A stretch of DNA of 64,000 nt, taken from positions 5,153 through 69,152 of the forward strand of contig CALVXC010000002.1 in assembly GCA_944368805.1 (NCBI GenBank), written 5' to 3'. The position numbers and the translations under genes are program-made. The DNA comes from an uncultured Bacilli bacterium (GTDB lineage Bacteria > Bacillota_I > Bacilli_A > RF39 > UBA660). Shown here in pieces: positions 4,991 through 63,208 of the stretch; within the stretch, counting starts at the first letter, position 1; every line of letters begins with the position of its first letter. A model generated the notes under the pieces. The model had not been told where the DNA came from and did no database searches. It saw only the letters and a list, made by a program, of their open reading frames with translations.

Positions 4991-6457
<1,467 letters not shown>

Positions 6458-10092: not shown

Positions 10093-10129
10093 TTGATATA
10101 AGCTACTATTTTTGATATGGAGGTATTGA

Positions 10130-37942: not shown

Positions 37943-38308
37943 ATGAATGAAAATGGGTTTACTTTAATTGAGTTAATTGCTATTATTGTTATTATTGGTA
38001 TTGTAGCTTTAATTACAATTCCAACTGTAACAAGTGTTATTAACAATGCAAGAGAAAATTTAACTGATCAACAGATTAAAACGATTGAATTATCAGCTAA
38101 AAAATGGGGATTAGATAATATCGATAGATTACCAACGGATGAAACAACTACAGGTTGTGTTTCTTTAAACACTTTACAATCACTAGGTTATTTAGATAAT
38201 GATATAATTAATCCAACTAATAATGAGGTAATGGAAGGTAGTGTAAAAATAACTTATTTAAAAGACTATAAACAATATGAATATGAATATCAACAAACTA
38301 GTTGTTAG
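37943..38308 (+). CDS. Type IV pilin / ComGC-like pseudopilin
   Basis: Class III signal peptide G|FTLIELIAIIVIIGIV with the Glu at +5. Confidence 0.7.
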   Translation: MNENGFTLIELIAIIVIIGIVALITIPTVTSVINNARENLTDQQIKTIELSAKKWGLDNIDRLPTDETTTGCVSLNTLQSLGYLDNDIINPTNNEVMEGSVKITYLKDYKQYEYEYQQTSC

Positions 38309-38318
38309 GAGAGATTTT

Positions 38319-39206
38319 ATGAAACAATTTTTAAATGTTTTTACAGCTTTAATTTGTTCTATTTTAACGATTATTTTATATTTAGTAGTTGTTAGTTTTT
38401 TAAGTGTTGTTATGTGTCGTGGTTTAATTAGTGAAGAAGGTATTAAAGAAATTACTGATGAAGTTGATATTCTATCTTTTAAAGCGACTGGTATTTTAGC
38501 TAATGAAGAACTTACAGATGCAACGATTAAAGATGTTATCGTTTCAAAAGCTACTTCACAAGGAGTATCAGAAGTTTTAGTTTTACAAGTTTTAGAAGAT
38601 CCTAAATTTAATCAAATAATTAATCAATTTTTAACAGATTATAGTAATTATATATTAGATGATGGAGTAAAACCAGAAATTGATCAAGAAGCAATAAATG
38701 AATTAATTGTTACTAGTCGTGATTCGGTAAAAGAACAAACAGGTTATGTTATTCCTGATAGTCAATTGAATGAATTAACTAAAATAGCTAATGATTTTGC
38801 TTTAGAGATTAATAATAGTATTCCTTTAAAAGAACAAATAGTTGATAATGGAGCTGATCAAGTTTTTGAATTAATTTATTCTAATTGGTTTATTTTTATT
38901 TCAATATGTACTATTATTTTGATTTTATTAGCGTTTATGCTGTTTTGTTTTAGTGTTATTGCGCCATTAATTTGGGGTGGAATTGCCTTTATTATGTCTG
39001 GTTCGACTTTGACTGTAATTGCGGTTTTAAAATCATTTATTACTAGTATAGTTAATCAATATGATAATGTTTATAGTAGCGTTTTTAAAGCTATAAGTGG
39101 TGGTTTATTTAAAAATATTTATTTTTATGGTATTGGTGTTTTATTATTAGGAATCTTAATGGTAATTATTTATAACGTTTTAAAAAAGAAAAAATTAAAA
39201 GATTAA
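38319..39206 (+). CDS. Hypothetical membrane protein downstream of the pilin gene (start uncertain, 38277 alternative)
   Basis: N-terminal and C-terminal TM segments; no motif recognised. Confidence 0.4.
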   Translation: MKQFLNVFTALICSILTIILYLVVVSFLSVVMCRGLISEEGIKEITDEVDILSFKATGILANEELTDATIKDVIVSKATSQGVSEVLVLQVLEDPKFNQIINQFLTDYSNYILDDGVKPEIDQEAINELIVTSRDSVKEQTGYVIPDSQLNELTKIANDFALEINNSIPLKEQIVDNGADQVFELIYSNWFIFISICTIILILLAFMLFCFSVIAPLIWGGIAFIMSGSTLTVIAVLKSFITSIVNQYDNVYSSVFKAISGGLFKNIYFYGIGVLLLGILMVIIYNVLKKKKLKD

Positions 39207-39473: not shown

Positions 39474-40595
39474 TTATTTTAATAATTTAGTTAAATATTC
39501 TTCTGCTTTAAAAAATTCTGGGTTTAAATCAGTTTTAGGATAAGTAACTGATGTTTTAGCTATTTTAACTAATTCTAAAGGTTCTTTAGAATCATTATGT
39601 AAAACCTGATTATTTTCAACAGTTATTTTATTAATAACATTACTAAAAGTTCCGATTGGATAATTAGCTTTTAATTCAGATAAATTTCTAGTTGCTACAA
39701 TTATTTTAACATTATTTAATGGTAGATTTAACATATTATATAAACAGTTTAATTGATTAATAAAATCAATGTTATCTAAAATAAAATTAAATGATAAATT
39801 GTTTTCTTTAACTAGGTGATAAACTTGTTCAATAAATATATTAGCAAAATTATTAATATTTTTATTATCATCTTTTAAAATGATAAAAATAGCTGTTTTC
39901 TTTTGACCAATATTAAGTAAATCAAAATTAGTCTTACTTATAAGCGCGAGTAAATCAGTTCTTAAACAATAATTTTTAATTTTTTGTCTAGCAACTGATA
40001 AAATACTTTCTTTAGTATCACGTGGTGCATAAACAGTACTAGAAGCAGATAAATAAATAGGATCAGTTGGTTCTAATTTGTTTAAATACATTGTTATTAA
40101 ATTACTATCTTGATCTTTTTTAGTTGTTAGATCCATAACAGTACTAATACTACCTAAATTAACTTCTGCTTCTTTAGCTTCTTTAATCGTTAATAAACTC
40201 ATACCAGTAAATAAATCAGCTGAAGTGTTTGTCCAAAAAGGATCAATATTATTTTTTTCATCTTCTTCAGTAAAAATGCGATAAGAAATTTTTTCAATTA
40301 ATTCAAAACATTTATCAATATTATTATTTTTATAGTAATAATAAGGTAGGGTAAAAGGATTGTAGTTATTACTTTTAGTAGGATCTGATAAATTGATAGT
40401 AATAATTTCATAACCTTTTTCTTGTAATTGATTTATATATTGTTTATAATATTCTTGTTTTAAATCCAAAAATAATAAATTTTCATCATTTTTAATTAAT
40501 TGATTAACTTCCTTAAAAATAATACCGGTTGTTTTTCCAGAATCAATTTTTCCTTCAATTAAATTTGTTTTATAATTTTCCAAATAATTTTTCAT
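39474..40595 (-). CDS. P-loop ATPase resembling an N-terminally truncated TraG/TraD/VirD4 coupling protein (degenerate)
   Basis: GKIDSGKTTG Walker A, NYNPF and DPFW motifs. An IILKDD Walker-B-like motif replaces the usual DE. Confidence 0.4.
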   Translation of the reverse strand: MKNYLENYKTNLIEGKIDSGKTTGIIFKEVNQLIKNDENLLFLDLKQEYYKQYINQLQEKGYEIITINLSDPTKSNNYNPFTLPYYYYKNNNIDKCFELIEKISYRIFTEEDEKNNIDPFWTNTSADLFTGMSLLTIKEAKEAEVNLGSISTVMDLTTKKDQDSNLITMYLNKLEPTDPIYLSASSTVYAPRDTKESILSVARQKIKNYCLRTDLLALISKTNFDLLNIGQKKTAIFIILKDDNKNINNFANIFIEQVYHLVKENNLSFNFILDNIDFINQLNCLYNMLNLPLNNVKIIVATRNLSELKANYPIGTFSNVINKITVENNQVLHNDSKEPLELVKIAKTSVTYPKTDLNPEFFKAEEYLTKLLK

Positions 40596-40604
40596 AAATT
40601 CCTC

Positions 40605-41444
40605 CTAATTTAAATTTTTTTTCATTTGAATATATTTTATTTGATTTTTAGTTATTTGATTATCTTCTATAAATCCATATTGTTTAGCTAAATTAATTTT
40701 TTCTTTATCAGTTAGTTTAATTAAAATAGTAATATATTTATAATCAGATTTTAATTTATCAAAAATCAAATGCATTAATTCGATACTATTAAAAGTACTA
40801 TCGGGATTATTTAAGTTAATATCTAATAAGTTATTTGAATTATAAATAATGAAATCATCAGTAATGGAGCTATTTTCATAAATGATATAATAAGTAGCTT
40901 TTTTACTTTTAACATCATTAGTTAATGTTTGGTTAAGATTTGTTTTCCTTTGAAATAACAATTGATCATAACTAGCTTTGACGATTCTTTTAATAGTATT
41001 TAAATTATTATCGATTTTCTTAACTTTTTGATGTTCTATTTCGTAAGTAGGGTTATTTAAAATAATCTTACCATTATGAATACAACTTCTTAAATAATCG
41101 ATTTTTTTTATTTTTTCTTTCGTAATATTTATTTGATTTAACAATTGCTGTTTTTTTTCATTCATTTTAAAGTCATCGAAATTGTTCCAATAGTTTTTTA
41201 TTTCTTCTAATGTAAAACCAACATTTTTAAGTTCAGTAATAATTTTATATTCTTCAATTTTAGCGTCACTATAGTAGCGATAACCGGTATAAATATCAAT
41301 ATTGTCAGGTTTAAATAAATCTATTTCATCATAATATCTAAGAGTTCGAATTGATGCACCAGTAAGTTTAGAAAAAGTGCCTATTCTATACACCTCTTTA
41401 CTCCTTTCAGTTGACTTTAAAATATCGATTGTTAAATTTGTCAT
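40605..41444 (-). CDS. MerR-family regulator with ~150-aa uncharacterised C-terminal domain
   Basis: YRIGTFSKLTGASIRTLRYYDEIDLFKP helix-turn-helix. Confidence 0.65.
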   Translation of the reverse strand: MTNLTIDILKSTERSKEVYRIGTFSKLTGASIRTLRYYDEIDLFKPDNIDIYTGYRYYSDAKIEEYKIITELKNVGFTLEEIKNYWNNFDDFKMNEKKQQLLNQINITKEKIKKIDYLRSCIHNGKIILNNPTYEIEHQKVKKIDNNLNTIKRIVKASYDQLLFQRKTNLNQTLTNDVKSKKATYYIIYENSSITDDFIIYNSNNLLDINLNNPDSTFNSIELMHLIFDKLKSDYKYITILIKLTDKEKINLAKQYGFIEDNQITKNQIKYIQMKKNLN

Positions 41445-41457
41445 TATTATATCATGT

Positions 41458-41745
41458 TTAAATGATATTGAAAAGTTTTAAAATAATTGCTAAAAGGATA
41501 AGGGTAACAGCTATAAAAATATTAAAACCTAGTGAACCATCATATTTATTTTGTGTTTGTTTAGCTTCGGTATAGATATCTTCACGTTTAAAATTATTTC
41601 GCGCATAAGCTTCACTAAAATATTCACATCGTTCGTTATTAGCCCAAACAAATTTGTTAATTTTAGAACAATAACAATAACCGGCTTTGTTATCTTTTAT
41701 TTTGTCAGGATTTAAATATGTGCAATCACTGCAATATCTTGCCAT
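41458..41745 (-). CDS. Small Zn-ribbon-like protein with C-terminal TM anchor
   Basis: CSDC...CYC...C pattern with a hydrophobic tail. Confidence 0.4.
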   Translation of the reverse strand: MARYCSDCTYLNPDKIKDNKAGYCYCSKINKFVWANNERCEYFSEAYARNNFKREDIYTEAKQTQNKYDGSLGFNIFIAVTLILLAIILKLFNII

Positions 41746-42765: not shown

Positions 42766-42810
42766 AAGACTGTCAGCAAACTAATTTTGCCAACAGTCTT
42801 ATTTTAATCC
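42766..42810. terminator. Bidirectional terminator
   Basis: aagactgtcagcaaa-ctaa-tttgccaacagtctt with a T-run. Confidence 0.55.
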
Positions 42811-43005
42811 TTTTTCTAAGGTGTCTAAAATATATTCTTGATTATTTATATCGCTGTTATTCCAAAGAATTTCAAAGAAAATACCTAAACCTGGTAAAGT
42901 AATTTCATCATTACTACTAATTGCTTCGGTAATTGACGTTTTAATTTCATCTTTTTCTGCACCTTTAAAATTTTCTTTGATGCTTTTACGAATATTAATT
43001 TCCAT
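42799..43005 (-). CDS. sspI: Small acid-soluble spore protein I
   Basis: EITLPGLGIFFEILW...LDTLEKGLK matches B. subtilis SspI (...LPGLGVLFEVIW...LKTLEGGLK). Confidence 0.75.
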   Translation of the reverse strand: MEINIRKSIKENFKGAEKDEIKTSITEAISSNDEITLPGLGIFFEILWNNSDINNQEYILDTLEKGLK

Positions 43006-43110
43006 TTTATCCCTCCTAATTATAAGATGTCAAATATTTAAAAAAAATATACAAAATTATTCCAATTTAGATATTTTTATTATATAATGTTAATAGAATG
43101 GAGGAAGAAA

Positions 43111-46121: not shown

Positions 46122-47702
46122 ATGCGAAAAATATTTTTTGTTTTGATTTTATTTTTAAGTAATATGGCTTTTATTAAAGCAGAAACTTTTTATTCAAAAT
46201 ATTCAGATTATAGTGATTATACTGATGAATATGTTGAAGAATCTGATATCATTTCGGTAAAAAAAGAAAGACGTTATAGATGGTATAAAAATATTAAACA
46301 ATTAGGTGATTATTATCCATTTACTAGTAATGTTTTAGATTATCCAGAAGTTGATGTTAACGATTACTATGAAACCGATTATAGTGATTGGTCTATAAAT
46401 TATCCTGGTTTTATATTATATCGAACTATTGAAACAAGGGATGTTTATGAATATAAAGATCCACAACCAATTAGATATATTCAGTTTCATAGTTTAAAAG
46501 GTGGTAATGGTTTCTTTACAATTACTGAATTAGAAATTTTTAATAATAATGATTTAATAGATTATAAAATATTAAATAATACTAGTGATTTTGCTAAACG
46601 TTTAAAAGACGGTAATTATAATGATATTGATAATAAAATAATTAATAATTCTAAGATAATTATCGATTTAAATGATTATTATCAAGTTAAAGATATTAAA
46701 ATGAAATTATATTTATATGATACTACTAATCAAGTTAATCAAATTAAAGCTAAATTTACAAGGGATTCTTCTTTTAATAGTTATAGTTTTGCTGAATTAT
46801 ATACTTTAAATTATTTTGTATGTAATAGTGTAACTGATATTAAAACACTAGCGTATGAAGCTAAAGATTATCGTCTTTTTACACCTAAATATGATATAAA
46901 TTATTCTTTAGAATATCCTTTAGAAAAAGAAGGTAGAATTATTAATCAAGTTATTCAATATCGTTATAAAGACACTTTATTTCGTCATTATCGTTTAACT
47001 AAAGAATATTTAACTAACTATTATAAAGATAATCCTGGCGATTATATTAAAGATATTAATTTATTTAAAGATTATTATAGTTATAAAAAGCGAGACAAGG
47101 TGGTTATTGATGATGACTTAGTTTTTACTGATTATAATAAAAAATTAGAAGATTTAATATTAGAAACAACAGTTAATGATATAAAAATTGATACTAATTT
47201 TAATATTAATAAAAATGGTAAATATCAAGTCAAGTTTATTTTGCCTTTTATGAGTATTGAAAAAATAGTTACTGTTGATATTCTTCAAAATGAAATTAAT
47301 GAGATAAATGATAAGTTATTAGAAACGGAAAAACAATTAAAAGAAAAGAAAGATTTATTAAATAGCTATAAAGAACAACTTACTAAATTAAAACAAGAAT
47401 TAGAAAAATCAAAAGAAAATAAAGAAGAAGAAAAAATAAAAGAATATGAAGCTAAAATATTAGTTTTAGAACAGCATATTGAATATTTAATTGAAAAAAT
47501 TAACCAATTAGATCAGAAACGAATAGAATATAATAATAAACTTAAATGTTTATTAGAAAAGCAAAAAGAAGAAAAGATAGTTAAAGAAAATAAAAAAACA
47601 AATTATTTTAGTAATCTTAAACTATGGTTATGGCTAATTATTTTAATTATATTGCTTATATTATTGATAAAAATTATTAAAATGAAAAAATTGTCATATT
47701 AA
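46122..47702 (+). CDS. Secreted surface protein with long coiled-coil and C-terminal TM anchor
   Basis: Signal peptide, Y/D/N-rich globular part, K/E coiled-coil at 380-490 and an LWLWLIILIIL anchor. Confidence 0.5.
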   Translation: MRKIFFVLILFLSNMAFIKAETFYSKYSDYSDYTDEYVEESDIISVKKERRYRWYKNIKQLGDYYPFTSNVLDYPEVDVNDYYETDYSDWSINYPGFILYRTIETRDVYEYKDPQPIRYIQFHSLKGGNGFFTITELEIFNNNDLIDYKILNNTSDFAKRLKDGNYNDIDNKIINNSKIIIDLNDYYQVKDIKMKLYLYDTTNQVNQIKAKFTRDSSFNSYSFAELYTLNYFVCNSVTDIKTLAYEAKDYRLFTPKYDINYSLEYPLEKEGRIINQVIQYRYKDTLFRHYRLTKEYLTNYYKDNPGDYIKDINLFKDYYSYKKRDKVVIDDDLVFTDYNKKLEDLILETTVNDIKIDTNFNINKNGKYQVKFILPFMSIEKIVTVDILQNEINEINDKLLETEKQLKEKKDLLNSYKEQLTKLKQELEKSKENKEEEKIKEYEAKILVLEQHIEYLIEKINQLDQKRIEYNNKLKCLLEKQKEEKIVKENKKTNYFSNLKLWLWLIILIILLILLIKIIKMKKLSY

Positions 47703-47778
47703 AATAAATTCTACTTTTGTCGATTTGGTATAAAAAAAATAAGTTGTGTGCTAAATTAAAGTAGACGGGGTGAATAAT

Positions 47779-48126
47779 ATGTTAAATATTAATATGGAAT
47801 TTAGAAAAGGAATTTTGTTTGTAAGATTAGCTGGTGAACTTACTAAAAATACTTATAGTAAGTTAAATGATGAAGTTACTATTTTAGTTAAAGAAAATGG
47901 TATTCGTAATATTGTCTTTAACGTATCTGAATTAGAGCAAATTGATATGAAAGGGATAAGTTTTCTTTATTATAATTATGAGTTATGTAATCGAAATAAT
48001 GGTAAGATTTTAGTTTGTGGTTTAAAAAGTGAAAATGTTAAACATCGTTTAAGGCATAGTCGAATTCTTAATTACATGTATGAAGTTAGTGATGAGTTAA
48101 AAGCAATGGAAACAATTAATGTGTAG
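47779..48126 (+). CDS. spoIIAA: Anti-sigma-F factor antagonist SpoIIAA-like STAS protein
   Basis: Aligns with B. subtilis SpoIIAA (ILFVRLAGEL... vs VLCIRLTGEL...). The canonical phospho-Ser position seems replaced (DMKG vs DSSG). Confidence 0.65.
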   Translation: MLNINMEFRKGILFVRLAGELTKNTYSKLNDEVTILVKENGIRNIVFNVSELEQIDMKGISFLYYNYELCNRNNGKILVCGLKSENVKHRLRHSRILNYMYEVSDELKAMETINV

Positions 48127-48134
48127 GTGATGAT

Positions 48135-48794
48135 ATGCAAGTTGAAACAATTATTGAAGATAATCAAAATTTAGTTTACTCACTAGCTTATAAATTTAAA
48201 AACTATTCTCAAAAAGAAGATTTGTTCCAAGTAGGGAAACTAGGATTAATTAAAGCTTATGAAAATTATGATGAAACAAAAGGTGCGAAATTTACAACAT
48301 ATGCTTTTCCATATGTCTTAGGTGAAATGAAAAAGTTAGTTAGAGAAGATAAAGGTTATAAAGTTAGTCGCGAGATAAATGCTTTAAATGCTAAAATTGA
48401 ACAAGTTTATACTTTGCTTTCACAAAAACTTATGAAAGAACCTTCTACTTTAGAAGTGGCTAATTATCTTGAAATTGATGAACAATTAGTTATTCAAGCT
48501 TTGAATGCAAATTATCCCATTAGTAGTATCGACGAACCATTTAATTTAGATGGTAAGGAAATGACGTTACATGATACTTTAGCTGATTTAGAAAAAATCG
48601 ATTTAGATACGTTAATTGCTTTAAAATTGTGTTTGGAATATTTATCATTAGATGAACAAATGTTAATTAATTATCGTTATATGAATGATTTAACGCAAAG
48701 TGAAACAGCTAAGTTACTTGGAATTAATCAGGTTCAAGTATCGAGATTAGAACATAAGGTTTTAAAAAAAATGCGTCAATATTTAGTATCTTAA
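48135..48794 (+). CDS. sigF: Sporulation sigma factor SigF-like
   Basis: DLFQVGKLGLIKAYENYD...FTTYAFPYVLGEMKK...KVSR and TQSETAKLLGINQVQVSRLEHKVLKKMR closely match B. subtilis SigF regions 2 and 4. Confidence 0.8.
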   Translation: MQVETIIEDNQNLVYSLAYKFKNYSQKEDLFQVGKLGLIKAYENYDETKGAKFTTYAFPYVLGEMKKLVREDKGYKVSREINALNAKIEQVYTLLSQKLMKEPSTLEVANYLEIDEQLVIQALNANYPISSIDEPFNLDGKEMTLHDTLADLEKIDLDTLIALKLCLEYLSLDEQMLINYRYMNDLTQSETAKLLGINQVQVSRLEHKVLKKMRQYLVS

Positions 48795-48822
48795 AAGGTC
48801 AAATGACCTTTTTTTGCTGTTT
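48795..48822 (+). terminator. Rho-independent terminator between sigF and spoVAC
   Basis: aaggtcaaatgacctttttttg. Confidence 0.65.
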
Positions 48823-48868
48823 AGGTATATTTGCTAAAATTATTTTCATAATAATTTTAGGTGATATT

Positions 48869-49315
48869 ATGGATAAGAAAGATTATCAAAAGTTAGTTGA
48901 TAAAAATACTCCTAAAGAAAAACGTTTAAAAAATGGAATCGTTGCTTTTTTTATTGGAGGATTTATGGGGATTATTGGTCAAGGGTTAATTGATTTATAT
49001 ATGAATTGGTTTGATATTTCTAGTAAACAAGCTTCCGTTTTTATGATTGTAACACTAATTTTTGTTGGTTGTTTTTTAACTTGTTTAGGTTTTTTTGATA
49101 AATGGGTTAATTTTGCAAGATGTGGTTTAATTGTTCCGATAACTGGTTTTGCTCATGCTATGATGAGTGCAGCTTTGGAATATAAAAAAGAAGGTATGGT
49201 TACAGGAATTGGGGCGAATATGTTTAAATTAGCTGGTAGTGTTATTATTTTTGGTGTCGTCAGTGCTTATACTTTTGGTCTTATTAGATTATTGATTTTA
49301 GGAGGTAGTGTATGA
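48869..49315 (+). CDS. spoVAC: Stage V sporulation protein AC
   Basis: Four-TM protein with the GLIVPITGFAHAM motif. Confidence 0.8.
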   Translation: MDKKDYQKLVDKNTPKEKRLKNGIVAFFIGGFMGIIGQGLIDLYMNWFDISSKQASVFMIVTLIFVGCFLTCLGFFDKWVNFARCGLIVPITGFAHAMMSAALEYKKEGMVTGIGANMFKLAGSVIIFGVVSAYTFGLIRLLILGGSV

Positions 49316-50301
49316 CTTTTAAATATAATAATGTATATTTAGAAAATACTTCCACGGTAACGGGACCTTATGAAAAAAATGGACCATTAGGTAATTTTTT
49401 TGATAAAAGTTATGATGATTTATATTGTGGTAATAAAACTTGGGAATATGCCGAAGTTCAGCTGATTTTAGATAGTATTGATTTGGTTTTGAAAAAGCAA
49501 AATAAAACTAAAAATGATATCGATTTACATATTAGTGGAGATTTGTTAAATCAAACAGTTGCTTCTAATTATGCTTCAGCTCAAATAAAAAGACCTTTTT
49601 TAGGTGTTTATAGTGCTTGTGCTTCTAGTGTTGAAACTTTAATTATTGGTGCTAATATGATTGAAAGTAATCAGATTAAAAATTGTTTATGTACAACTTC
49701 ATCACATAATAATAGTGCTGAAAAACAATTTCGTTATCCGGTTGAATATGGAGGACCTAAACCAATTACGACAACTTTTACAACAACTGGAGGAGTGGCT
49801 GCTTATTTAGGTAGAGAAAAAAAGGGTGTTAGAATTGAAAGTGCTACTATTGGTATTGTAAACGATTATGGAATTAAAGATGTTTTTCATATGGGAGCAG
49901 TTATGGCTCCAGCCGCTGCTGATACAATTTATCGTCATTTAAAAGATTTAAAAAGAGATATTAATTATTATGATATGATTTTAACTGGTGATTTGGGTAT
50001 TTATGGCAAAGATATTTTAAAAGATTTTATGAAAGAAGAATATAATATTGAGTTAAATAATCATGATGATGCAGCTTGTATGATTTTCAATCGAGATAAA
50101 CAACCAGTTTTAGCAGGAGGCAGTGGACCTGCTTGTGCGCCTTTAGTAACTTATAGTTATATTTTTGAAAAAATGAAAGAAAAACAAATATCGAAAGTTT
50201 TATTAGTAGCAACCGGTGCTTTAATGAATCCTTCGATGACAAATGAAAAAGAAGCAATTCCAAGTATTGCTCATGCAATTAGTTTGGAGGCGATAAAATG
50301 A
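49312..50301 (+). CDS. spoVAD: Stage V sporulation protein AD
   Basis: Thiolase/FabH-like fold protein in the spoVA position. Confidence 0.8.
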   Translation: MTFKYNNVYLENTSTVTGPYEKNGPLGNFFDKSYDDLYCGNKTWEYAEVQLILDSIDLVLKKQNKTKNDIDLHISGDLLNQTVASNYASAQIKRPFLGVYSACASSVETLIIGANMIESNQIKNCLCTTSSHNNSAEKQFRYPVEYGGPKPITTTFTTTGGVAAYLGREKKGVRIESATIGIVNDYGIKDVFHMGAVMAPAAADTIYRHLKDLKRDINYYDMILTGDLGIYGKDILKDFMKEEYNIELNNHDDAACMIFNRDKQPVLAGGSGPACAPLVTYSYIFEKMKEKQISKVLLVATGALMNPSMTNEKEAIPSIAHAISLEAIK

Positions 50302-50648
50302 TTTATTTATATGCTTTTCTTTTTGCAGGTTTGGTTTGTTTAATCGGTCAAATTATTTTAGATAATACGAAGTTAACACCAGGACATATTACAACTATTT
50401 TTGTTGTTTTAGGAACTTTATTAGACGTTTTTGATATATATGATAAATTTGTTTTATTTGCCGGTGGTGGTGCGTTAGTTCCTATTACTAGTTTTGGTCA
50501 TTTGTTAATTCATGGAGCAATGGATACTGCTAGTCAAGAAGGTTTTATGGGGTTAGTTATGGGAATGTTTGATTTAACGGCTTCTGGAATTACGTCAGCT
50601 ATTATTTTTTCTTTCTTTTTAGCGCTTATTTTTAAACCAAAAGATTAA
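50298..50648 (+). CDS. spoVAEB: Stage V sporulation protein AEb
   Basis: GGGALVPITSFGH motif, paralog of SpoVAC. Confidence 0.75.
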   Translation: MIYLYAFLFAGLVCLIGQIILDNTKLTPGHITTIFVVLGTLLDVFDIYDKFVLFAGGGALVPITSFGHLLIHGAMDTASQEGFMGLVMGMFDLTASGITSAIIFSFFLALIFKPKD

Positions 50649-50690
50649 AGCTATATGAAATTATTTTGTTTCATTATAGCTTTTTTCAAG
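50645..50690. terminator. Bidirectional terminator (spoVAEb / degV convergent)
   Basis: aaagctatatgaaattattttgtttcattatagcttttttc. Confidence 0.55.
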
Positions 50691-51602
50691 TTTTTTAACA
50701 TAACTAATACCACATAAATTTTCTGAACCATATGCTGCAACGACGCCACTAATATCTTGACGAATAAGGTGTTTGAAATTGGTTTTTTCTTGCAAATAAT
50801 TTTTAGCTTTTTCCATAGAACTTTCTTCTGAAGCAATCGTACCATAAACGATAAATTGTTGATCAGCTTGATTAAGTTTTTCAATATTTTGTTTTATTAA
50901 ATTTAAAATAGCCAATTGTTCTTGTTTACCTCTATAACATTTAACAATATGTAACTGACCATCGACAACATCAACTTGTGGTTGTAGTTTTAATTTGTTA
51001 ATAGCTTTACTAGCAAATTTAGTAGCAATATTCATAAGATGACTGTTAGTTGTTTTGTTTCGACCACTTCTAATAAAACCAGTTACATCAGGTACGATAA
51101 AAGATGTTTGAATTCGAGGAATAAAATTATGAATAATTTTATCATAAATTTCATTAGCCGAATAGCCATCTTTAATTAATTGTTCAATTAAAGTAACAAT
51201 TAATTTGCCAGTTGTTGCACCAGCTTTGGAATCAATTACGTAAATATGTTTACCATATTTTTGATTTAATAAATTAGCTTCTGTGTAAGCATTATTAAGT
51301 GAAGAACTAGAAATACTTTCACCCATGCTTACATGAAAAACAGTATCTGATATTTCTAAAGCTTCAGTAAATGTTTTTTCATAAGAGGAAAGATAAGGAC
51401 TTGCTGTTTTGAAAATTTCTCCTTGATTATTACGATTTGTAATTTCTTTAGGTGTTATATCAATTAAATCGAGATATTCTTGATCATTTTCATCAATAAT
51501 TAAAGCTGGAATTGTTTTAATAGGAATTTCTTTAGGGTCAGTCAAAATATTTTGTCCAGGTATACAGCCACTATCAGCTGTGATAATATAATTTTTTTTC
51601 AT
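50661..51602 (-). CDS. DegV family fatty-acid-binding protein
   Basis: DegV length and pattern (IITDSGCIPGQ...). Confidence 0.75.
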   Translation of the reverse strand: MKKNYIITADSGCIPGQNILTDPKEIPIKTIPALIIDENDQEYLDLIDITPKEITNRNNQGEIFKTASPYLSSYEKTFTEALEISDTVFHVSMGESISSSSLNNAYTEANLLNQKYGKHIYVIDSKAGATTGKLIVTLIEQLIKDGYSANEIYDKIIHNFIPRIQTSFIVPDVTGFIRSGRNKTTNSHLMNIATKFASKAINKLKLQPQVDVVDGQLHIVKCYRGKQEQLAILNLIKQNIEKLNQADQQFIVYGTIASEESSMEKAKNYLQEKTNFKHLIRQDISGVVAAYGSENLCGISYVKKLEKSYNETK

Positions 51603-52230: not shown

Positions 52231-52701
52231 TCAAATAATGTTTGCCCATTTTTTTAATTTTTCTAATGATATTTGATAAATAGTATTACCTATAAATTTA
52301 AAACCTATATGTTTAAATACCTTTTGAGATAATTCATTATTACTATTTATATGTATTGTTACTATATCATAAGATTGAATATTGTTTATTGCAGTAAATT
52401 CTTTTATTAAATTTTTAAGTATTCTATTATTAATATATTCTTTTTTTATTTGGCATTCTGATATCCATAATTGTTTATTATTTATGGAATATGATAAAAA
52501 ACCTATTATTTTATTTTCTTTTTTATAAGCTAGTATATGATAATTTTTATTATTTTTAATCATAGTACTCCATTTTATAAATTTTTCATCATTATAGTAA
52601 TCATCTTTATGAAAAGTTGGATATGTTTTTAATAAGTTTTCAATTAAGATGTTATACATTTCTTTTAAGTTGTTATTAGTTTTTTTTATTTTTGCTATCA
52701 T
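52231..52701 (-). CDS. GNAT N-acetyltransferase
   Basis: GNAT fold pattern; 5 nt downstream of the rSAM gene. Confidence 0.6.
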   Translation of the reverse strand: MIAKIKKTNNNLKEMYNILIENLLKTYPTFHKDDYYNDEKFIKWSTMIKNNKNYHILAYKKENKIIGFLSYSINNKQLWISECQIKKEYINNRILKNLIKEFTAINNIQSYDIVTIHINSNNELSQKVFKHIGFKFIGNTIYQISLEKLKKWANII

Positions 52702-52706
52702 TTTTA

Positions 52707-53951
52707 TTATTTAAACTCCTTTATCAACTTATCAGCTAATTCACAATAAAAATTTGGTACATTGGTTAAACTTCCTGTTTCCATATAAAACTTTCCTGGA
52801 CAATATCTACATAATGATTTTTTATTACAATTCATACACTTATTATCGGATCTATATATATATTTTTCAGGTATTTTTTCAAATTTGTTACAAGCATCTT
52901 CTATAGATATTTCCTTTAAATTATATTTAAAAGGTACTACTAAACATGGCCTAATATCTAAGTTCGAGCTTATATAAATTCTACCTGAATTTATACTACA
53001 TTGGAATACGTGATTGTCTATAGTATTCTTTATGTTTATATTTTTTATTTTTTCTTTGAAAAAAGTTGTACTATCATTATCTTCTTTTAATACTTTTATA
53101 ATTTCATCAGGTGTACATCTTTGCATGTTTTGACATATATTATCTTGATTAGGAAAAATTATATAATCATATCTAAATGGTAAATTTTTTTCTTTGGCAT
53201 AAGATTTTAATTTATATAGATAATTTTTGTTTTTCTTTGTTAAAACAGTTTTTAAGTTCAAATTTATACTATAGTCAATTAGTTTATCTATATTATTATT
53301 TATAATATTAAAAGCTCGTTTTGTATGTGTAAAATTATAATAACTTTTATTATCATAACCATAGATACTTAGTTCAATATTTCTAGGTTTATATTCAATA
53401 AATAAATTTAATAGCATTTCATTAAGAAGATATCCATTTGTATTTATAGTAACAAGAAAACCATTTTTTTTGGCTGAGAGATAAATATCAACAAAACTGT
53501 TATGTAAAAAAGGTTCTCCTCCCGTTATTAGAATTTCATTATAATCTAATTTAATTAATTGATTTATTAAATTTTGAAAATTTTCTAAATTTAATATTTC
53601 TTTTTTGTTTGATACAAAACAATGATCACATTTAAATGGACATGTATTAATTATTTCAATTGTTGCATTTTTAATACTATATATATTATTACTTATGATC
53701 TTTTTTTCAATATTATTTGGTGTAATTTTTAAATCATTTAATTGATTTATAAAATTATTATAATCATTTTCTATTATATCTTTAGAAATATTTTTGTATT
53801 TGTTTTTTAATAATTTTAATGTTAAATTTTTATTATTAATATTATCGATAATGATTTTTGAAACATCTGAAAATTCATATATTTCTTCTGCTTCTTTGAT
53901 ATTAATGACAATCGTCTTATCAATATATTGTCTAATTACATAATCTTTCAT
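52707..53951 (-). CDS. Radical SAM / SPASM-domain peptide-modifying enzyme with N-terminal RRE-like extension
   Basis: CPFKCDHC (Cx3Cx2C). C-terminal Cys cluster CMNCNKKSLCRYCPGK...NFYCE is typical of the SPASM auxiliary cluster. About 95 aa lie upstream of the radical SAM core. Confidence 0.75.
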   Translation of the reverse strand: MKDYVIRQYIDKTIVINIKEAEEIYEFSDVSKIIIDNINNKNLTLKLLKNKYKNISKDIIENDYNNFINQLNDLKITPNNIEKKIISNNIYSIKNATIEIINTCPFKCDHCFVSNKKEILNLENFQNLINQLIKLDYNEILITGGEPFLHNSFVDIYLSAKKNGFLVTINTNGYLLNEMLLNLFIEYKPRNIELSIYGYDNKSYYNFTHTKRAFNIINNNIDKLIDYSINLNLKTVLTKKNKNYLYKLKSYAKEKNLPFRYDYIIFPNQDNICQNMQRCTPDEIIKVLKEDNDSTTFFKEKIKNINIKNTIDNHVFQCSINSGRIYISSNLDIRPCLVVPFKYNLKEISIEDACNKFEKIPEKYIYRSDNKCMNCNKKSLCRYCPGKFYMETGSLTNVPNFYCELADKLIKEFK

Positions 53952-54004
53952 TTTAATTTTCCTCTTTTATAAAATAATAAGGCTTTTTATAAAAGCCTTA
54001 TTAT

Positions 54005-54208
54005 TTAACATCCATCTCCATCATTAGCAGAGTAGCTTTGTTCCCAACATCCCATAACGATTTTGTGATTGTTGTTTTTCTTCACCAACTTTTTAATTTT
54101 TGGAGATTGATATTGATTGTCTTTAATTTTAGTATTATAATCTGGTTCTTTTAAGGCTAAATTTCCGTCAATAGTCTTAATTGATGTAAAAGTCTTAATT
54201 TTCATCAT
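54005..54208 (-). CDS. Candidate RiPP precursor peptide (~67 aa; core ...KIVMGCWEQSYSANDGDGC)
   Basis: The ATG-ATG pair has its own AAGGAGG RBS and a TTGACA-16-TATAAT promoter embedded in the longer predicted ORF. Lys-rich leader with two Cys at the extreme C-terminus. Sits directly upstream of the rSAM/SPASM gene. Confidence 0.55.
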   Translation of the reverse strand: MMKIKTFTSIKTIDGNLALKEPDYNTKIKDNQYQSPKIKKLVKKNNNHKIVMGCWEQSYSANDGDGC

Positions 54209-54224
54209 ATACCTCCTTGGGTTT

Positions 54225-54252
54225 ATTATAACATTTATAATATAAATGTCAA
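54225..54252 (-). promoter_or_regulatory. SigA promoter for the precursor/rSAM/GNAT operon
   Basis: - strand TTGACA, 16 nt, TATAAT, then AAGGAGG. Confidence 0.6.
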
Positions 54253-54374
54253 GTTCGAATTTAATCATGTAAAATGGTTTATTGTGCGTTTATACCTTTT
54301 TTGTTCTACTTCTATTATAAACGAACATTGTAGACAATAATGGTTTATTTTGTTATATTATTATTGGTGATAAA

Positions 54375-61176: not shown

Positions 61177-61203
61177 AAACGTTAGATTAATTTCTAACGT
61201 TTA
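61177..61203 (-). terminator. Terminator after glmS
   Basis: aaacgttagaaattaatctaacgttt hairpin. Confidence 0.5.
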
Positions 61204-63006
61204 TTCAACAGTAACCGATTTAGCTAAATTTCTAGGTTTATCAATATCGCATCCTCTTAATAAAGCAACTTCATAAGCTATTACTTGAAGTGGGATAATT
61301 GAAAGTAAAGGTTGCGTAAATGGATTTACACTAGGAATGACAATTTTTTCATCATAATAATCTGATTCTGTATTTAAGTTTTCAGAAATAATTAAAATAA
61401 CTTTCGCACCTCTAGCTTTGACTTCTTTAATATTACTAATAGTTTTACTAGCTAATTTTTCATCAGTAACAATAGCTATAACCGGAGTATCTTTTTCGAT
61501 TAAAGAAATAGAACCATGTTTTAATTCTCCAGCTGCATAAGATTCACAGTGGATATAAGAAATTTCTTTTAATTTCAAAGCTCCTTCTTTAGCAATTGCT
61601 TCATCAATACCACGTCCAATAAAGAAGATATGTTCTTTTTTATATATTTTTTTAGCTATTTTTTTATAATCTTGATTGATTAAATCTTTTATTAAACTAG
61701 GTAATTTTTTCATTTCATCGAAAATTTTACTAACTAAAACATTATCTAGTTTCTTTTTATTAATTGCAATATTTAAAGCAATTAATGATAATAATGTTGA
61801 CTGCGCTAAATAAGCTTTAGTAGTAGCAACAGCTATTTCACATCCAGCTTTAATATATAATGTTTTATCAGCTTCTCTAGCAATTGAGCTACCAACAACA
61901 TTGATAATGGCAAGTGAATCAATACCTTGTTCTTTGACTTTTCTTAAACAAGCTAAGGTATCGGCTGTTTCACCAGATTGGGAAATAAAAATAACTAAAG
62001 TTTTGGCGTTATAAAAAACTTTTTTATAGCGATATTCACTAGCAATTTCAACTGAAACAGGAATTTCACCAAATTCTTCAATTAAAGCTTTGCCGACTAA
62101 ACCAGTATGATAAGCACTACCACATGCAACAATATGAATTTGTTCATATTTACTTAAATCAGGTATTTCTTTTCGTAAACTTTGTTTACCATCTTTGATA
62201 CAAGGTGCGATTGTATCTTCGATAACAAAAGGTTGTTCATTTATTTCTTTTAACATAAAATGATCGTAACCATTTTTCATAGCGTTTTCTAAATCTAAAT
62301 CAAAAGTTTGAAGTTCTTTTTTGACTTCTTTTAAATCGTGATTGTAAATAGTTAAATTATCTTTACTGATTTTACCAATTTCGTTATTTTCAATTAAGTA
62401 ATATTTATTGGTATATTTTAAAATAGCTGGAACATCAGAAGCTATAAAATAACCATCAGTTGATTTAGCAATAATTAAAGGACTATCTTTTTTTAAACAA
62501 TATAAATGATTAGGATCATCGGTACAAATAATTCCCATTGCATAAGATCCTTCAAAAATGTCTTGACATTTACTTAAAGCTTTTAAAATATCTTTTTCTT
62601 GATTATACATTTTATCAATTAAAGCAGTAGCAATTTCGGTATCGGTTTCAGAATAAAATTTATAACCGTCTTTTATAAGTTTTTGTTTTAATTTTTCATA
62701 ATTTTCAATAATTCCATTATGAACTAAAGCTATTTTTCCTTGCATATGAGGATGCGCATTATTTTCGCTAGGGGCACCATGAGTTGCCCATCTTGTATGA
62801 CCAATTCCTAAATTAGATTTTTGTTTATAATTAACACATTTATCTAAATTTTCTAATTTTCCTTGCTTTTTTAATATATTTATTTTATCTGTCATATAGG
62901 CAATACCAGCTGAATCATAACCACGGTATTCTAAAGATTTTAAACCATTGATTAGAAATTCTAAAGTATTATCGTTTTTTCCTATATAACCTACAATTCC
63001 ACACAT
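61201..63006 (-). CDS. glmS: Glutamine--fructose-6-phosphate aminotransferase
   Basis: MCGIVGY N-terminal nucleophile, two SIS domains. Confidence 0.95.
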   Translation of the reverse strand: MCGIVGYIGKNDNTLEFLINGLKSLEYRGYDSAGIAYMTDKINILKKQGKLENLDKCVNYKQKSNLGIGHTRWATHGAPSENNAHPHMQGKIALVHNGIIENYEKLKQKLIKDGYKFYSETDTEIATALIDKMYNQEKDILKALSKCQDIFEGSYAMGIICTDDPNHLYCLKKDSPLIIAKSTDGYFIASDVPAILKYTNKYYLIENNEIGKISKDNLTIYNHDLKEVKKELQTFDLDLENAMKNGYDHFMLKEINEQPFVIEDTIAPCIKDGKQSLRKEIPDLSKYEQIHIVACGSAYHTGLVGKALIEEFGEIPVSVEIASEYRYKKVFYNAKTLVIFISQSGETADTLACLRKVKEQGIDSLAIINVVGSSIAREADKTLYIKAGCEIAVATTKAYLAQSTLLSLIALNIAINKKKLDNVLVSKIFDEMKKLPSLIKDLINQDYKKIAKKIYKKEHIFFIGRGIDEAIAKEGALKLKEISYIHCESYAAGELKHGSISLIEKDTPVIAIVTDEKLASKTISNIKEVKARGAKVILIISENLNTESDYYDEKIVIPSVNPFTQPLLSIIPLQVIAYEVALLRGCDIDKPRNLAKSVTVE

Positions 63007-63009
63007 ATA

Positions 63010-63170
63010 ACCTCCTAAAATTGTGATTAATAAATGATATATTCTTTGTTGTAAGACGATATTTTACTTTTTAAAATATATCTAACGAAGTTATCGCTCC
63101 GTAGTAGCATCCGCTGATAATTCGACAACTACTATCCTCGTCAACTAATTAAGTCCAAGCGCTAAATAAT
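63010..63170 (-). ncRNA. glmS ribozyme: glmS ribozyme (GlcN6P-responsive self-cleaving riboswitch)
   Basis: - strand AGCGCUUGGACU...GACGAGGAUAGUAGUUGUCGAAUUAUCAGCGGAUGCUACUAC... matches the B. subtilis glmS core (GACGAGGAUGGAGGUUAUCGAAUUUUCGGCGGAUGCCUCC). Lies in the 5' UTR of glmS. Confidence 0.8.
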
Positions 63171-63208
63171 TAACATTTTACCTCCTTTTAGGTTAATTAT
63201 CTATTAAT

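What the first reader, a model, noticed from the sequence alone, without database searches (positions are those of the whole stretch)
47770..50648. Reduced sporulation block: spoIIAA-sigF without spoIIAB, SpoIIAA lacking the canonical phospho-serine, and spoVA reduced to C/D/Eb
In endospore formers the forespore sigma is encoded as spoIIAA-spoIIAB-sigF. Here the STAS antagonist (ends 48126) is followed 8 nt later by sigF, and no GHKL anti-sigma kinase is present. When aligned to B. subtilis SpoIIAA, the Ser58 position (DSSG) reads DMKG, so the partner-switch phosphorylation site appears absent. SigF also lacks ~35 N-terminal residues. A terminator separates sigF from spoVAC. The spoVA operon lacks spoVAA/AB/AEa/AF. 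This suggests a rewired or minimal sigma-F control circuit.
Basis: partly seen in the sequence, partly recalled or inferred. Interest (0 to 1): 0.5.

Follow-up and report, generated by a model that had tools for sequence, protein, structure and literature searches.

The report
Sigma-F operon lacking its SpoIIAB kinase
An uncultured, AT-rich, RF39-type gut bacterium keeps the spore-starting sigma factor σF and a remodelled SpoIIAA-like partner that cannot be phosphorylated at the usual site, but lacks the SpoIIAB kinase/anti-sigma gene between them; this holds across a whole lineage, while the short σF and the three-gene spoVA operon are ordinary.

Summary
Window 47779-50648 encodes a STAS protein, then 8 nt, a σF-type sigma, a terminator, and spoVAC-AD-AEb. 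No SpoIIAB-like sequence occurs in the 64-kb window or in about 386 kb of related loci.

About 25 distinct low-GC "Bacilli/Mollicutes" MAG species share the layout. One of them is a GTDB RF39 genome. Field et al. 2024 already reported RF39 as largely lacking spoIIAB and spoIIE.

I found no prior description of these points:
- The SpoIIAA descendant is retained under purifying selection (dN/dS 0.15, the same as σF).
- It still folds like SpoIIAA (TM 0.91).
- It has lost the phospho-acceptor Ser58, the SpoIIAB/SpoIIE docking residue Arg67 and the DHH motif. Family-specific conserved residues replace them.
- A Spo0A box sits at a fixed distance upstream in nearly all loci.
- σG/σF-type promoters precede spoVA and sspI.

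The short σF N-terminus also occurs in canonical SpoIIAB-linked σF. The C/D/Eb-only spoVA operon is normal outside Bacillaceae.

Best reading: a lineage-wide, phosphorylation-free reduction of the σF partner switch. The role of the retained STAS protein is unknown. Whole-genome absence of spoIIAB was not tested here.

The parts
47716..47724 (+). Spo0A-box-like element TTTGTCGAT (consensus TGTCGAA, one mismatch), about 55-60 nt upstream of the STAS start codon
   Evidence: An exact TGTCGAA lies 53-75 nt upstream of the first gene of the operon in 19 of 25 related loci. Chance expectation is 0.01 per 120 nt.
47728..47758 (+). Conserved promoter-like block GTATA-N17-GCTAAATTA downstream of the 0A box; the sigma factor that reads it is unresolved
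   Evidence: The same block with the same spacing is present in L004, L005, L006, L008, L019 and L013. No sigma-H type GAAT -10 element is present.
47779..48126 (+). SpoIIAA-derived STAS protein (115 aa) that lacks the phospho-acceptor Ser58, Arg67 and the DHH motif
   Evidence: Sequence: Pfam STAS 1.2e-14; TIGR02886 48 bits, below its cut-off of 114.75. Structure: AF2 pLDDT 95.9; best PDB fold match is SpoIIAA 1THN_B, TM 0.91, 30% identity; best PDB sequence match is SpoIIAA, 1e-18. Residue columns. Selection: dN/dS 0.15.
48135..48794 (+). Sigma-F-type sporulation sigma factor (219 aa), 8 nt downstream of the STAS gene, RBS AGGTGA at 48125-48130
   Evidence: Sigma-70 regions r2, r3 and r4 are present. 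NCBIfam scores are SigF 176, SigG 149 and SigB 137 bits. It scores 206 bits on a context-defined SigF HMM and 154 on the SigG HMM, and it falls in a monophyletic clade with the sigmas of the related loci. The family has 661 homologues of about 218 aa. dN/dS is 0.16.
48793..48822 (+). Intrinsic terminator (8-bp stem AAAAGGTC/GACCTTTT plus T-run) ending the STAS-sigF operon
   Evidence: It is the only terminator-like site found in 47600-50900. Fold energy is -11.9 kcal/mol, z = -3.15.
48825..48853 (+). Forespore-type (sigma-G/sigma-F class) promoter GTATA-N17-CATAATA in front of spoVAC
   Evidence: It matches the pattern GHATR-N17/18-CATnHTA and is conserved upstream of spoVAC in most related loci. 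The consensus is quoted from my own knowledge of B. subtilis sigma-G promoters.
48869..49315 (+). spoVAC (148 aa)
   Evidence: TIGR02838 175.2 bits, above its cut-off of 164; Pfam SpoVAC_SpoVAEB 2e-33.
49312..50301 (+). spoVAD (329 aa)
   Evidence: NF006160 415.3 bits, above its cut-off of 402; Pfam SpoVAD 3e-122.
50298..50648 (+). spoVAEb (116 aa)
   Evidence: TIGR02839 146.4 bits, above its cut-off of 131.1.

Best explanation
This is the spoIIA-spoVA region of a reduced-genome, RF39-type member of the class Bacilli. In this lineage the textbook sigma-F partner-switching module (SpoIIAA, SpoIIAB kinase/anti-sigma, SpoIIE phosphatase) has been cut down.

Shown here:
- spoIIAB is gone from between spoIIAA and sigF.
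- The SpoIIAA descendant is kept under purifying selection and still has the SpoIIAA fold.
- Its phospho-acceptor Ser58, the SpoIIAB/SpoIIE docking residue Arg67 and the DHH motif have been replaced by family-specific conserved residues. It therefore cannot work as a phosphorylation-controlled antagonist.
- The two-gene operon sits behind a strongly conserved Spo0A box and ends in a terminator.
- The spoVAC-AD-AEb genes that follow, and sspI nearby, carry sigma-G/sigma-F-type promoters.

Inferred:
- Sigma-F is switched on mainly by Spo0A-dependent transcription of its own operon.
- Sigma-F or sigma-G then reads the GTATA-N17-CATAATA promoters.
- The retained STAS protein acts without phosphorylation, either on sigma-F directly or on an unidentified partner.
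- Sub-lineages that have also lost the STAS gene but kept the promoter suggest sigma-F can run with transcriptional control alone.
For: Anatomy and absence of the kinase:
- Gene layout and domain assignments.
- No SpoIIAB-like sequence in the window plus about 386 kb of related loci.
- The search model was validated: it recovers 24 SpoIIAB genes in the canonical position, one of them confirmed as TIGR01925 at 186 bits against a cut-off of 135.

Lineage-wide pattern:
- STAS-sigma(-spoVA) without the kinase in the window and 19 other loci. The intergenic gap is -4 to +14 nt.
- Five further loci have sigma alone and four of them keep the 0A box.
- L014 is Ca. Coprosoma intestinipullorum, GTDB order RF39.
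- Field et al. [quoted passage not shown]

STAS protein:
- Its best structural and sequence match is SpoIIAA.
- In 120 close members the Ser58 column is never Ser (M/I/L/V/C/Y/T/F/A). Ser59 is Lys in 100 of 120 and Arg67 is Asn in 118 of 120.
- In 150 representatives at 50% clustering the position is unconstrained (S or T in 23 of 150) and Arg67 is kept in 2 of 150.
- Arg67 lies in both the SpoIIAB and the SpoIIE interfaces (PMC11418112).

Selection:
- dN/dS is 0.15 for STAS and 0.16 for sigma.
- The ratio of STAS to sigma divergence is 1.20, against 1.18 in canonical operons.

Sigma orthology:
- Context-defined SigF HMM scores exceed SigG HMM scores by about 25-75 bits across the clade (52 bits for the window), which is monophyletic.
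- A separate SigG-like gene (L075) and pro-sigma-K-like genes (L004, L006, L008) exist in low-GC Bacilli MAG loci from the same scan; the latter three lie next to group-A operons.

Promoters and terminator.
Against: - Whole-genome absence of spoIIAB and spoIIE was not tested for this genome. It rests on a KEGG-style survey of RF39, and such pipelines also fail to name this divergent sigma-F and STAS protein. NCBI calls them only 'sigma-70 family' and 'STAS domain-containing'. A very divergent kinase elsewhere therefore cannot be excluded.
- Assignment of the window itself to RF39 is indirect.
- No tool result shows what the STAS protein binds.
- Whether these uncultured organisms form spores at all is unknown.
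- The sigma factor that reads the operon promoter is unresolved.
- The residue of sigma-F that I recalled as SpoIIAB-related (E149) shows no informative change.
Confidence: 0.6

Rival explanations
1. The retained STAS protein has itself become the direct regulator of sigma-F. It would act as a one-component anti-sigma or as a stoichiometric chaperone or activator, binding sigma-F through the remodelled face that used to bind SpoIIAB.
For: - The STAS and sigma genes are co-transcribed and tightly coupled, with a gap of -4 to +14 nt in 17 loci.
- STAS is as constrained as sigma-F.
- The motifs that form the SpoIIAB/SpoIIE-binding face (DHH, DSSG, GRY) are not simply degraded. In the close family they are replaced by other conserved residues: K at position 24, ID-x-KG at 56-60, YNY at 66-68.
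- Several residues invariant in both sigma-F and sigma-G, which both bind SpoIIAB (PMC3174212), are switched in this clade's sigma: R55 to Y, G56 to N/S, E115 to K.
Against: - There is no direct evidence of binding, and a complex prediction could not be run with the tools allowed.
- Adjacency is inherited from the ancestral operon, so it is not independent evidence.
- Five related lineages do without the STAS gene altogether, and one has only a 72-aa remnant.
- In the wider family the position-58 column is unconstrained.
Confidence: 0.25
2. A SpoIIAB-type anti-sigma, relocated or highly diverged, exists elsewhere in the genome. The STAS protein would still work as its antagonist, but as a constitutive one that cannot be phosphorylated.
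For: - Only 64 kb of this genome and up to 10 kb on either side in relatives were searched.
- Annotation models under-call the divergent proteins of this clade.
- Non-phosphorylatable antagonists paired with a kinase-type anti-sigma are known in M. tuberculosis (RsfA with UsfX). This is from my own knowledge; the related structure 8IH8 appears.
Against: - Arg67 and the DHH motif, which belong to the SpoIIAB-contacting surface, are lost together with Ser58.
- The published genome-wide survey finds spoIIAB reduced or absent in RF39.
- An antagonist that can never be switched off and is co-expressed with sigma-F would make an anti-sigma pointless.
Confidence: 0.1
3. The region is a relic. The lineage no longer sporulates and these genes are decaying or have been co-opted for something else.
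For: - RF39 and its neighbours are reduced-genome, host-associated lineages with repeated losses of sporulation genes.
- There is a graded series from STAS-sigma, to a truncated STAS, to sigma alone.
- No cultured spore-forming representative is known to me, and none turned up in the literature searches.
Against: - All five genes have intact ORFs.
- dN/dS is 0.10-0.16 for sspI, STAS and sigma.
- The Spo0A box and the forespore-type promoters are conserved.
- Pro-sigma-K-like and SigG-like genes are present in relatives.
- Field et al. predict that RF39 is still able to form spores.
Confidence: 0.15
4. The missing kinase is an artefact of assembly or binning: a collapsed or chimeric contig.
For: The source is a metagenome assembly. 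Some related contigs carry implausible taxonomic labels such as 'Muribaculaceae'.
Against: - The identical junction occurs on independent contigs from different samples and assemblers.
- It also occurs in about 25 species-level genomes, each with its own sequence.
- The STAS protein is co-adapted to the loss, having no Ser58 or Arg67.
Confidence: 0.01

Closest known systems
spoIIA operon (spoIIAA-spoIIAB-sigF) of Bacillus, Geobacillus and Clostridia: the SpoIIAA/SpoIIAB/SpoIIE partner switch controlling sigma-F
   Same: - The first gene is a SpoIIAA-fold STAS protein. Its best PDB match is G. stearothermophilus SpoIIAA (TM 0.91, 30% identity).
- The last gene is a sigma-F-type sigma.
- There is a Spo0A box upstream, a terminator after the operon, and spoVA downstream behind a forespore-type promoter.
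   Different: - The middle gene, the SpoIIAB anti-sigma/kinase, is absent.
- Ser58, Arg67 and the DHH motif of SpoIIAA are replaced.
- spoIIE is reported as largely absent in the lineage (literature).
- The circuit therefore cannot use phosphorylation and dephosphorylation.
Sporulation gene content of order RF39 as surveyed by Field, Bowerman & Hugenholtz 2024 (Microb Genom, PMC10868615)
   Same: [quoted passage not shown] One of the kinase-less loci here (L014) is an RF39 genome.
   Different: - The survey is a presence/absence table.
- In the text I read it does not describe the retained, remodelled SpoIIAA, the loss of its phosphosite and docking residues, the conserved 0A-box promoter, or the sub-lineages lacking the STAS gene too.
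- The window's own membership of RF39 was not tested here.
M. tuberculosis SigF system: UsfX anti-sigma with antagonists RsfA (not phosphorylated, redox-sensitive) and RsfB (own knowledge; RsfB-UsfX structure 8IH8 appears)
   Same: A STAS-type antagonist that lacks a phosphorylatable Ser and works without a kinase/phosphatase cycle. The family here also has two conserved cysteines (C70 nearly invariant, C80 invariant).
   Different: RsfA still acts on a GHKL-type anti-sigma. Here no such anti-sigma is found. A redox role for the cysteines is pure speculation.
Three-gene spoVAC-spoVAD-spoVAE operons of Clostridia and Erysipelotrichia
   Same: The gene set, gene order and position directly after sigF match canonical loci L015, L018 and L041. 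spoVAA, spoVAB and spoVAEA are bacillar genes missing in Erysipelotrichia and Planococcaceae (Galperin et al.).
   Different: Nothing notable. This part of the finding is ordinary.

Membership tests
SpoIIAA (anti-sigma F factor antagonist) | STAS alpha/beta fold superimposable on solved SpoIIAA | tested here: met
   The AF2 model has pLDDT 95.9. The Foldseek top five hits are G. stearothermophilus SpoIIAA chains, with TM 0.90-0.91 and rmsd 1.6-1.8 A.
SpoIIAA (anti-sigma F factor antagonist) | Closest sequence relatives among characterised proteins are SpoIIAA; score above the NCBIfam equivalog cut-off | tested here: inconclusive
   A family profile searched against PDB gives SpoIIAA at 1e-18 as the best hit. 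TIGR02886 scores only 48.3 bits against a cut-off of 114.75. However, a canonical SpoIIAB-linked SpoIIAA (L080) also fails that cut-off, at 90.2 bits.
SpoIIAA (anti-sigma F factor antagonist) | Phosphorylatable Ser58 in the D-S-S-G loop | tested here: not met
   The window reads D-M-K-G. None of 120 close family members has Ser at this position. The position is unconstrained in 150 representatives at 50% clustering. It is Ser in 25 of 25 canonical sequences.
SpoIIAA (anti-sigma F factor antagonist) | Arg67, a docking residue shared by the SpoIIAB and SpoIIE interfaces (PMC11418112) | tested here: not met
   It is Asn in 118 of 120 family members. Arg is kept in 2 of 150 representatives. The canonical frequency is R 0.96.
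SpoIIAA (anti-sigma F factor antagonist) | Cognate SpoIIAB kinase/anti-sigma encoded in the same operon | tested here: not met
   There are 8 nt between the STAS stop and the sigma start. No SpoIIAB-like sequence is found in the window or in related loci.
SpoIIAA (anti-sigma F factor antagonist) | First gene of the Spo0A-controlled operon that encodes sigma-F | tested here: met
   This follows from the gene order and from the conserved 0A box at a fixed distance upstream. Control by Spo0A itself is inferred, not shown.
Sigma-F (SigF, TIGR02885) | Group-3 sigma-70 architecture (regions 2, 3, 4), scoring best as SigF among the sporulation sigmas | tested here: met
   The Pfam regions r2, r3 and r4 are present. 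NCBIfam scores are SigF 176, SigG 149 and SigB 137 bits. Context-defined HMM scores are SigF 206 and SigG 154 bits. It is below the equivalog cut-off of 321, as is the canonical sigma-F of L080 at 219 bits.
Sigma-F (SigF, TIGR02885) | Synteny: downstream of spoIIAA(-spoIIAB) and upstream of spoVA | tested here: met
   The same order is seen in canonical loci L015, L018 and L041.
Sigma-F (SigF, TIGR02885) | Held inactive by SpoIIAB and released in the forespore | not testable with these tools
   No SpoIIAB was found locally. Compartment-specific activity needs experiments.
SpoIIAB (anti-sigma F factor, TIGR01925) | A GHKL-fold protein of about 145 aa present in the region | tested here: not met
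   hmmsearch, including a six-frame search with --max, gives no hit at E<=0.01 in the window. The rest of the genome was not available.
SpoVAC / SpoVAD / SpoVAEb | Score above the NCBIfam curated cut-offs; contiguous C-D-Eb order | tested here: met
   The scores are 175.2 against a cut-off of 164, 415.3 against 402, and 146.4 against 131.1.
GTDB order RF39 (class Bacilli) | Phylogenomic placement of the source genome | not tested
   The evidence is indirect only. The window has 25.8% GC. The closest relatives are labelled Mollicutes, Tenericutes or Bacilli MAGs. L014, with the same architecture, is RF39/CAG-822. The gene-loss pattern matches.

The most novel reading that the evidence does not exclude
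In a whole order of uncultured gut Bacilli, the SpoIIAA-derived STAS protein has been converted from a phosphorylation-controlled anti-anti-sigma into a kinase-independent, direct regulator of sigma-F. This would be a two-protein STAS-sigma module that replaces the SpoIIE/SpoIIAA/SpoIIAB partner switch. Forespore-specific gene activation would then be achieved, if it is achieved at all, by a mechanism different from that of every studied endospore former.
Probability: 0.25. Interest if true: 0.75.

Novelty: new variant of a known kind. Interest (0 to 1): 0.5.

Why it matters
The SpoIIE-SpoIIAA-SpoIIAB-sigma-F switch is the textbook mechanism by which one of two sister cells turns on a cell-specific programme. 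Comparative surveys of cultured spore formers describe these genes as highly conserved in every sporulating lineage (Galperin et al.).

A large, diverse clade departs from this. It comprises about 270 clusters at 50% identity, keeps sigma-F, a constrained SpoIIAA descendant, Spo0A boxes and forespore promoters, and drops the kinase and the phosphosite. Either sigma-F can be made cell-specific without phosphorylation, or these abundant gut bacteria run a non-compartmentalised or otherwise altered developmental programme.

It also gives a natural series: three genes, then two genes, then sigma alone. That series can be used to ask what the minimal control of sigma-F is.

Practically, it shows that marker-based predictions of sporulation in MAGs will misjudge this lineage, because standard models name neither its sigma-F nor its SpoIIAA.

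Tried and rejected
1. Sigma truncated by a deletion that also removed spoIIAB. Rejected. The 218-219 aa length is uniform over hundreds of homologues. Canonical SpoIIAB-linked sigma-F genes are equally short and align to the SigF model over the same span.
2. Pseudogenised sigma in L014 and L066. Rejected. The N-termini are in frame and simply start at ATT/ATA-type codons that my ORF finder ignored.
3. Sigma is SigG or SigB rather than SigF. Rejected on HMM scores and synteny. The NJ tree does not resolve the deep order of the F and G clades.
4. A sigma-H promoter for the operon. No GAAT-type -10 was found. The match to a sigma-F-type -10 is poor, and an extended -10 sigma-A reading is possible. 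Left unresolved.
5. Loss of the sigma-F residue I recalled as SpoIIAB-related (E149, equivalent to sigma-G E156). The column is not informative.
6. Basic pI of the STAS family (9.4 against 7.3 in canonical SpoIIAA). Not used as evidence, because AT-rich genomes are Lys-rich in general.
7. Looking for gene tables in the supplement of Field et al. No occurrences of the gene names or KO numbers.
8. Whole-genome check for spoIIAB and spoIIE. Not possible.
9. Predicting the STAS-sigma complex.
10. Count of sigma-G-type promoter matches in the window. It is no higher than chance overall (3 observed against 2.8 expected). Only the positions, directly upstream of spoVAC and sspI, are meaningful.

Full report
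WHAT IS THERE

The window has 25.8% G+C. It comes from a metagenome-assembled genome. The same sigma gene lies on an ENA scaffold, on two Logan contigs and on an NCBI MAG contig.

Between 47.7 and 50.7 kb the plus strand carries, in order:
- a STAS-domain gene. The longest ORF starts at GTG 47770. The start used by gene callers, and by the whole family, is ATG 47779, giving 115 aa with RBS GGGGTG;
- 8 nt (GTGATGAT);
- a 219-aa sigma factor with sigma-70 regions 2, 3 and 4;
- an intrinsic terminator at 48793-48812 plus a T-run;
- spoVAC, spoVAD and spoVAEb, each above its NCBIfam cut-off.

The rest of the window is housekeeping: alaS, lepA, hrcA-grpE-dnaK-dnaJ, dnaE, thyA-folA and others. It also holds an sspI gene and contains no other sigma or anti-sigma gene.

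IS THE KINASE REALLY MISSING?

They recovered 24 SpoIIAB ORFs lying exactly between a STAS gene and a sigma gene in Clostridia loci fetched with the sigma profile. One of them was confirmed as TIGR01925 at 186 bits against a cut-off of 135.

An HMM built from those 24 finds nothing at E<=0.01 in the window or in about 386 kb of related low-GC loci. This includes a six-frame search with HMMER's filters off. The rest of this genome was not available to me.

A LINEAGE TRAIT, NOT AN ACCIDENT

The 80 loci returned by the genome scan fall into three architectures:
- Canonical Clostridia have STAS-SpoIIAB-sigF.
- Another set has sigE-sigG pairs.
- A monophyletic group of low-GC MAGs, labelled Bacilli, Mollicutes or Tenericutes, has STAS-sigma with a gap of -4 to +14 nt, usually followed by spoVAC-AD-AEb, and never a kinase.

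Within that third group:
- Five loci (L013, L016, L021, L024, L038) lack the STAS gene as well, and four of them retain the upstream promoter. L013 looks like a clean excision.
- L066 keeps only a 72-aa STAS remnant.
- L014 is Candidatus Coprosoma intestinipullorum, which Gilroy et al. assign to GTDB order RF39, family CAG-822.

Field, Bowerman and Hugenholtz (2024) annotated 2650 Bacilli genomes. [quoted passage not shown] The gene loss is therefore already in the literature at survey level. This gives indirect support for genome-wide absence here.

[quoted passage not shown] Turicibacter has both SpoIIAA and SpoIIAB.

THE SIGMA IS THE SIGMA-F ORTHOLOGUE

- NCBIfam scores are SigF 176, SigG 149 and SigB 137 bits.
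- On HMMs defined purely by genomic context, the clade scores about 25-75 bits higher as SigF than as SigG (52 bits for the window).
- The neighbours, a SpoIIAA-like gene upstream and spoVA downstream, are those of sigF.
- Low-GC Bacilli MAG loci recovered in the same scan also carry a separate SigG-like gene (L075) and pro-sigma-K-like genes (L004, L006, L008). The latter three lie next to group-A operons.

The sigma is below the equivalog cut-off, and NCBI names it only 'sigma-70 family'. The same is true of the canonical, SpoIIAB-linked 217-aa sigma-F of L080. That protein aligns to the SigF model over the same span (residues 3-213 to model positions 13-229) as the window protein (3-217 to 13-231). 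The '35 missing N-terminal residues' are therefore a peculiarity of Bacillus, not of this gene.

THE STAS PROTEIN IS A REMODELLED, STILL-CONSTRAINED SPOIIAA

Fold and ancestry:
- Its AlphaFold model (pLDDT 95.9) superimposes on G. stearothermophilus SpoIIAA with TM 0.91 at 30% identity, ahead of RsbV, RsbS and other STAS proteins.
- The family profile hits SpoIIAA at 1e-18 in the PDB.
- That alignment also fixes the register: canonical D57-S58-S59-G60 aligns with D-M-K-G in the window.

Residue changes:
- In 25 canonical sequences S58, S59 and G60 are invariant. H24, H25, G66 and R67 are at least 92% conserved.
- In 120 close relatives of the window protein D57 and G60 stay invariant. Position 58 is M/I/L/V/C/Y/T/F/A and never Ser. 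Position 59 is Lys in 100. Position 24 is Lys in 115. GRY becomes YNY.
- In 150 representatives at 50% clustering, position 58 is unconstrained: L, S, I, E, K, N, M and others, with S or T in 23. Arg67 survives in 2. The profile search found 272 representatives at E<=1e-10.
- Arg67 is reported to lie in both the SpoIIAB and the SpoIIE interfaces of SpoIIAA (PMC11418112). Its loss together with Ser58 fits the loss of both partners.

Constraint:
- The gene is not decaying. dN/dS against an 87%-identical relative is 0.15, compared with 0.16 for sigma and 0.10 for sspI.
- The ratio of STAS divergence to sigma divergence is the same in kinase-less operons (1.20) and canonical operons (1.18).
- The close family has its own invariant residues, including two cysteines.

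REGULATORY SIGNALS

- An exact TGTCGAA lies 53-75 nt upstream of the first gene of the operon in 19 of 25 loci. The window has TGTCGAT. Chance expectation is 0.01 per 120 nt. This is the Spo0A-box consensus as I know it from Bacillus and Clostridium.
- The box is followed by a conserved GTATA-N17-GCTAAATTA block. I could not assign a sigma factor to it.
- A GTATA-N17-CATAATA element, matching the sigma-G/sigma-F class consensus GHATR-N17/18-CATnHTA (own knowledge), precedes spoVAC here and in most relatives.
- The only other well-placed match in the window sits directly upstream of sspI.

The logic 'Spo0A, then the sigF operon, then forespore-type promoters' therefore seems intact.

HOW IT MOST LIKELY WORKS

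Shown: the anatomy, the loss of the kinase locally and across the clade, the loss of the phosphosite and docking residues, purifying selection, and the conserved 0A box and forespore promoters.

Inferred:
- Sigma-F is controlled chiefly through Spo0A-dependent synthesis.
- The STAS protein acts without phosphorylation.

What the STAS protein binds is open. I give about 0.25 to a direct STAS-sigma-F interaction, about 0.1 to a hidden anti-sigma elsewhere, and about 0.15 to a relic in non-sporulating organisms. The remainder goes to a phosphorylation-independent role on an unknown partner.

The sigma-only sub-lineages argue that the STAS protein is dispensable in some genomes. That favours 'transcriptional control is sufficient' as the core of the circuit.

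COMPARISON AND NOVELTY

The spoVA part and the short sigma are ordinary. The absence of spoIIAB and spoIIE in RF39 is published.

Within the literature I could search, these points appear new:
- the kinase-less lineage keeps a constrained SpoIIAA descendant stripped of Ser58, Arg67 and DHH;
- the conserved 0A-box promoter;
- the graded series down to sigma alone.

I therefore class it as a new variant of a known kind, with moderate interest.

LIMITS

- There is no whole-genome check for this MAG.
- RF39 membership is inferred.
- The B. subtilis reference sequences and the promoter consensus sequences come from memory. The reference sequences were validated only by their strong hits.
- The trees are simple NJ trees.
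- Sporulation in these organisms has not been demonstrated.

Noticed in passing
window 46122-47702 (+): A 526-aa protein with a signal peptide, a long coiled coil and a C-terminal membrane anchor. It has no Pfam hit. It lies immediately upstream of the STAS-sigF operon here and in L004-L008, L010 and L088, and it evolves fast (dN/dS 0.5). It occupies the position that dacF holds in B. subtilis (own knowledge).
   Followed up: partly
window 42799-43005 (-), promoter 43023-43052 (-): An SspI-family small acid-soluble spore protein gene (68 aa) with a sigma-G-type promoter, GTATA-N18-CATCTTA, directly upstream. dN/dS is 0.10 against L088.
   Followed up: partly
window 52231-54268 (-): A possible RiPP cluster. 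A small ORF (up to 87 aa, ending ...MGCWEQSYSANDGDGC) lies directly upstream of a radical-SAM enzyme with a Cys-rich C-terminus (52707-53951) and a GNAT acetyltransferase (52231-52701).
   Followed up: no
window 201-5374 (+): Two collagen-like GXT-repeat ORFs (201-482 and 4991-5374), with similar non-repeat modules, flank a segment of about 4.5 kb. That segment encodes a large serine recombinase (3254-4972), a DUF6870 protein and a CAAX-protease-like protein. It could be an integrated element, or a recombinase-associated variable surface or exosporium-like gene.
   Followed up: partly
window 39474-41745 (-): A VirD4/TraG-like T4SS coupling protein, a MerR-family regulator and a small ORF. This is probably a remnant of a conjugative or integrative element next to prepilin-type (N_methyl) genes at 37943-39206.
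   Followed up: no
window 63027-63174 (-): A glmS ribozyme (70.8 bits) upstream of the 601-aa ORF at 61201-63006, which is presumably glmS.
   Followed up: no
L013, L016, L021, L024, L038 (sigma starts 3262, 9989, 9986, 2986, 1935); L066 9764-9982: Relatives in which the STAS gene is absent. Four of the five (not L038) keep the 0A-box promoter directly in front of sigF. L013 looks like a clean deletion. In L066 the STAS gene is cut down to 72 aa.
   Followed up: partly
L014 about 870-1515; L066 about 9985-10636: The sigF genes appear to start at ATT, ATA or ATC codons. The N-terminus is in frame, with a good RBS but no ATG, GTG or TTG.
   Followed up: partly
L008, L009, L010: These contigs are labelled 'uncultured Muribaculaceae bacterium' in their records. 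They have about 25% G+C and carry Bacillota sporulation genes, so they are probably mis-binned.
   Followed up: no
L004 7-714 (-), L006 7175-7876 (-), L008 24-731 (-): Pro-sigma-K-like genes (N-terminal ...SNNVFPDPLS...) lie within 2-10 kb of the kinase-less sigF operon in three relatives. No such gene is present in the window.
   Followed up: partly
STAS family alignment A2 (window protein residues C70 and C80): There are two conserved cysteines in a 115-aa protein from a very AT-rich genome. C80 is invariant and C70 is at least 90% conserved. Neither is conserved in canonical SpoIIAA. Their meaning is unknown.
   Followed up: no
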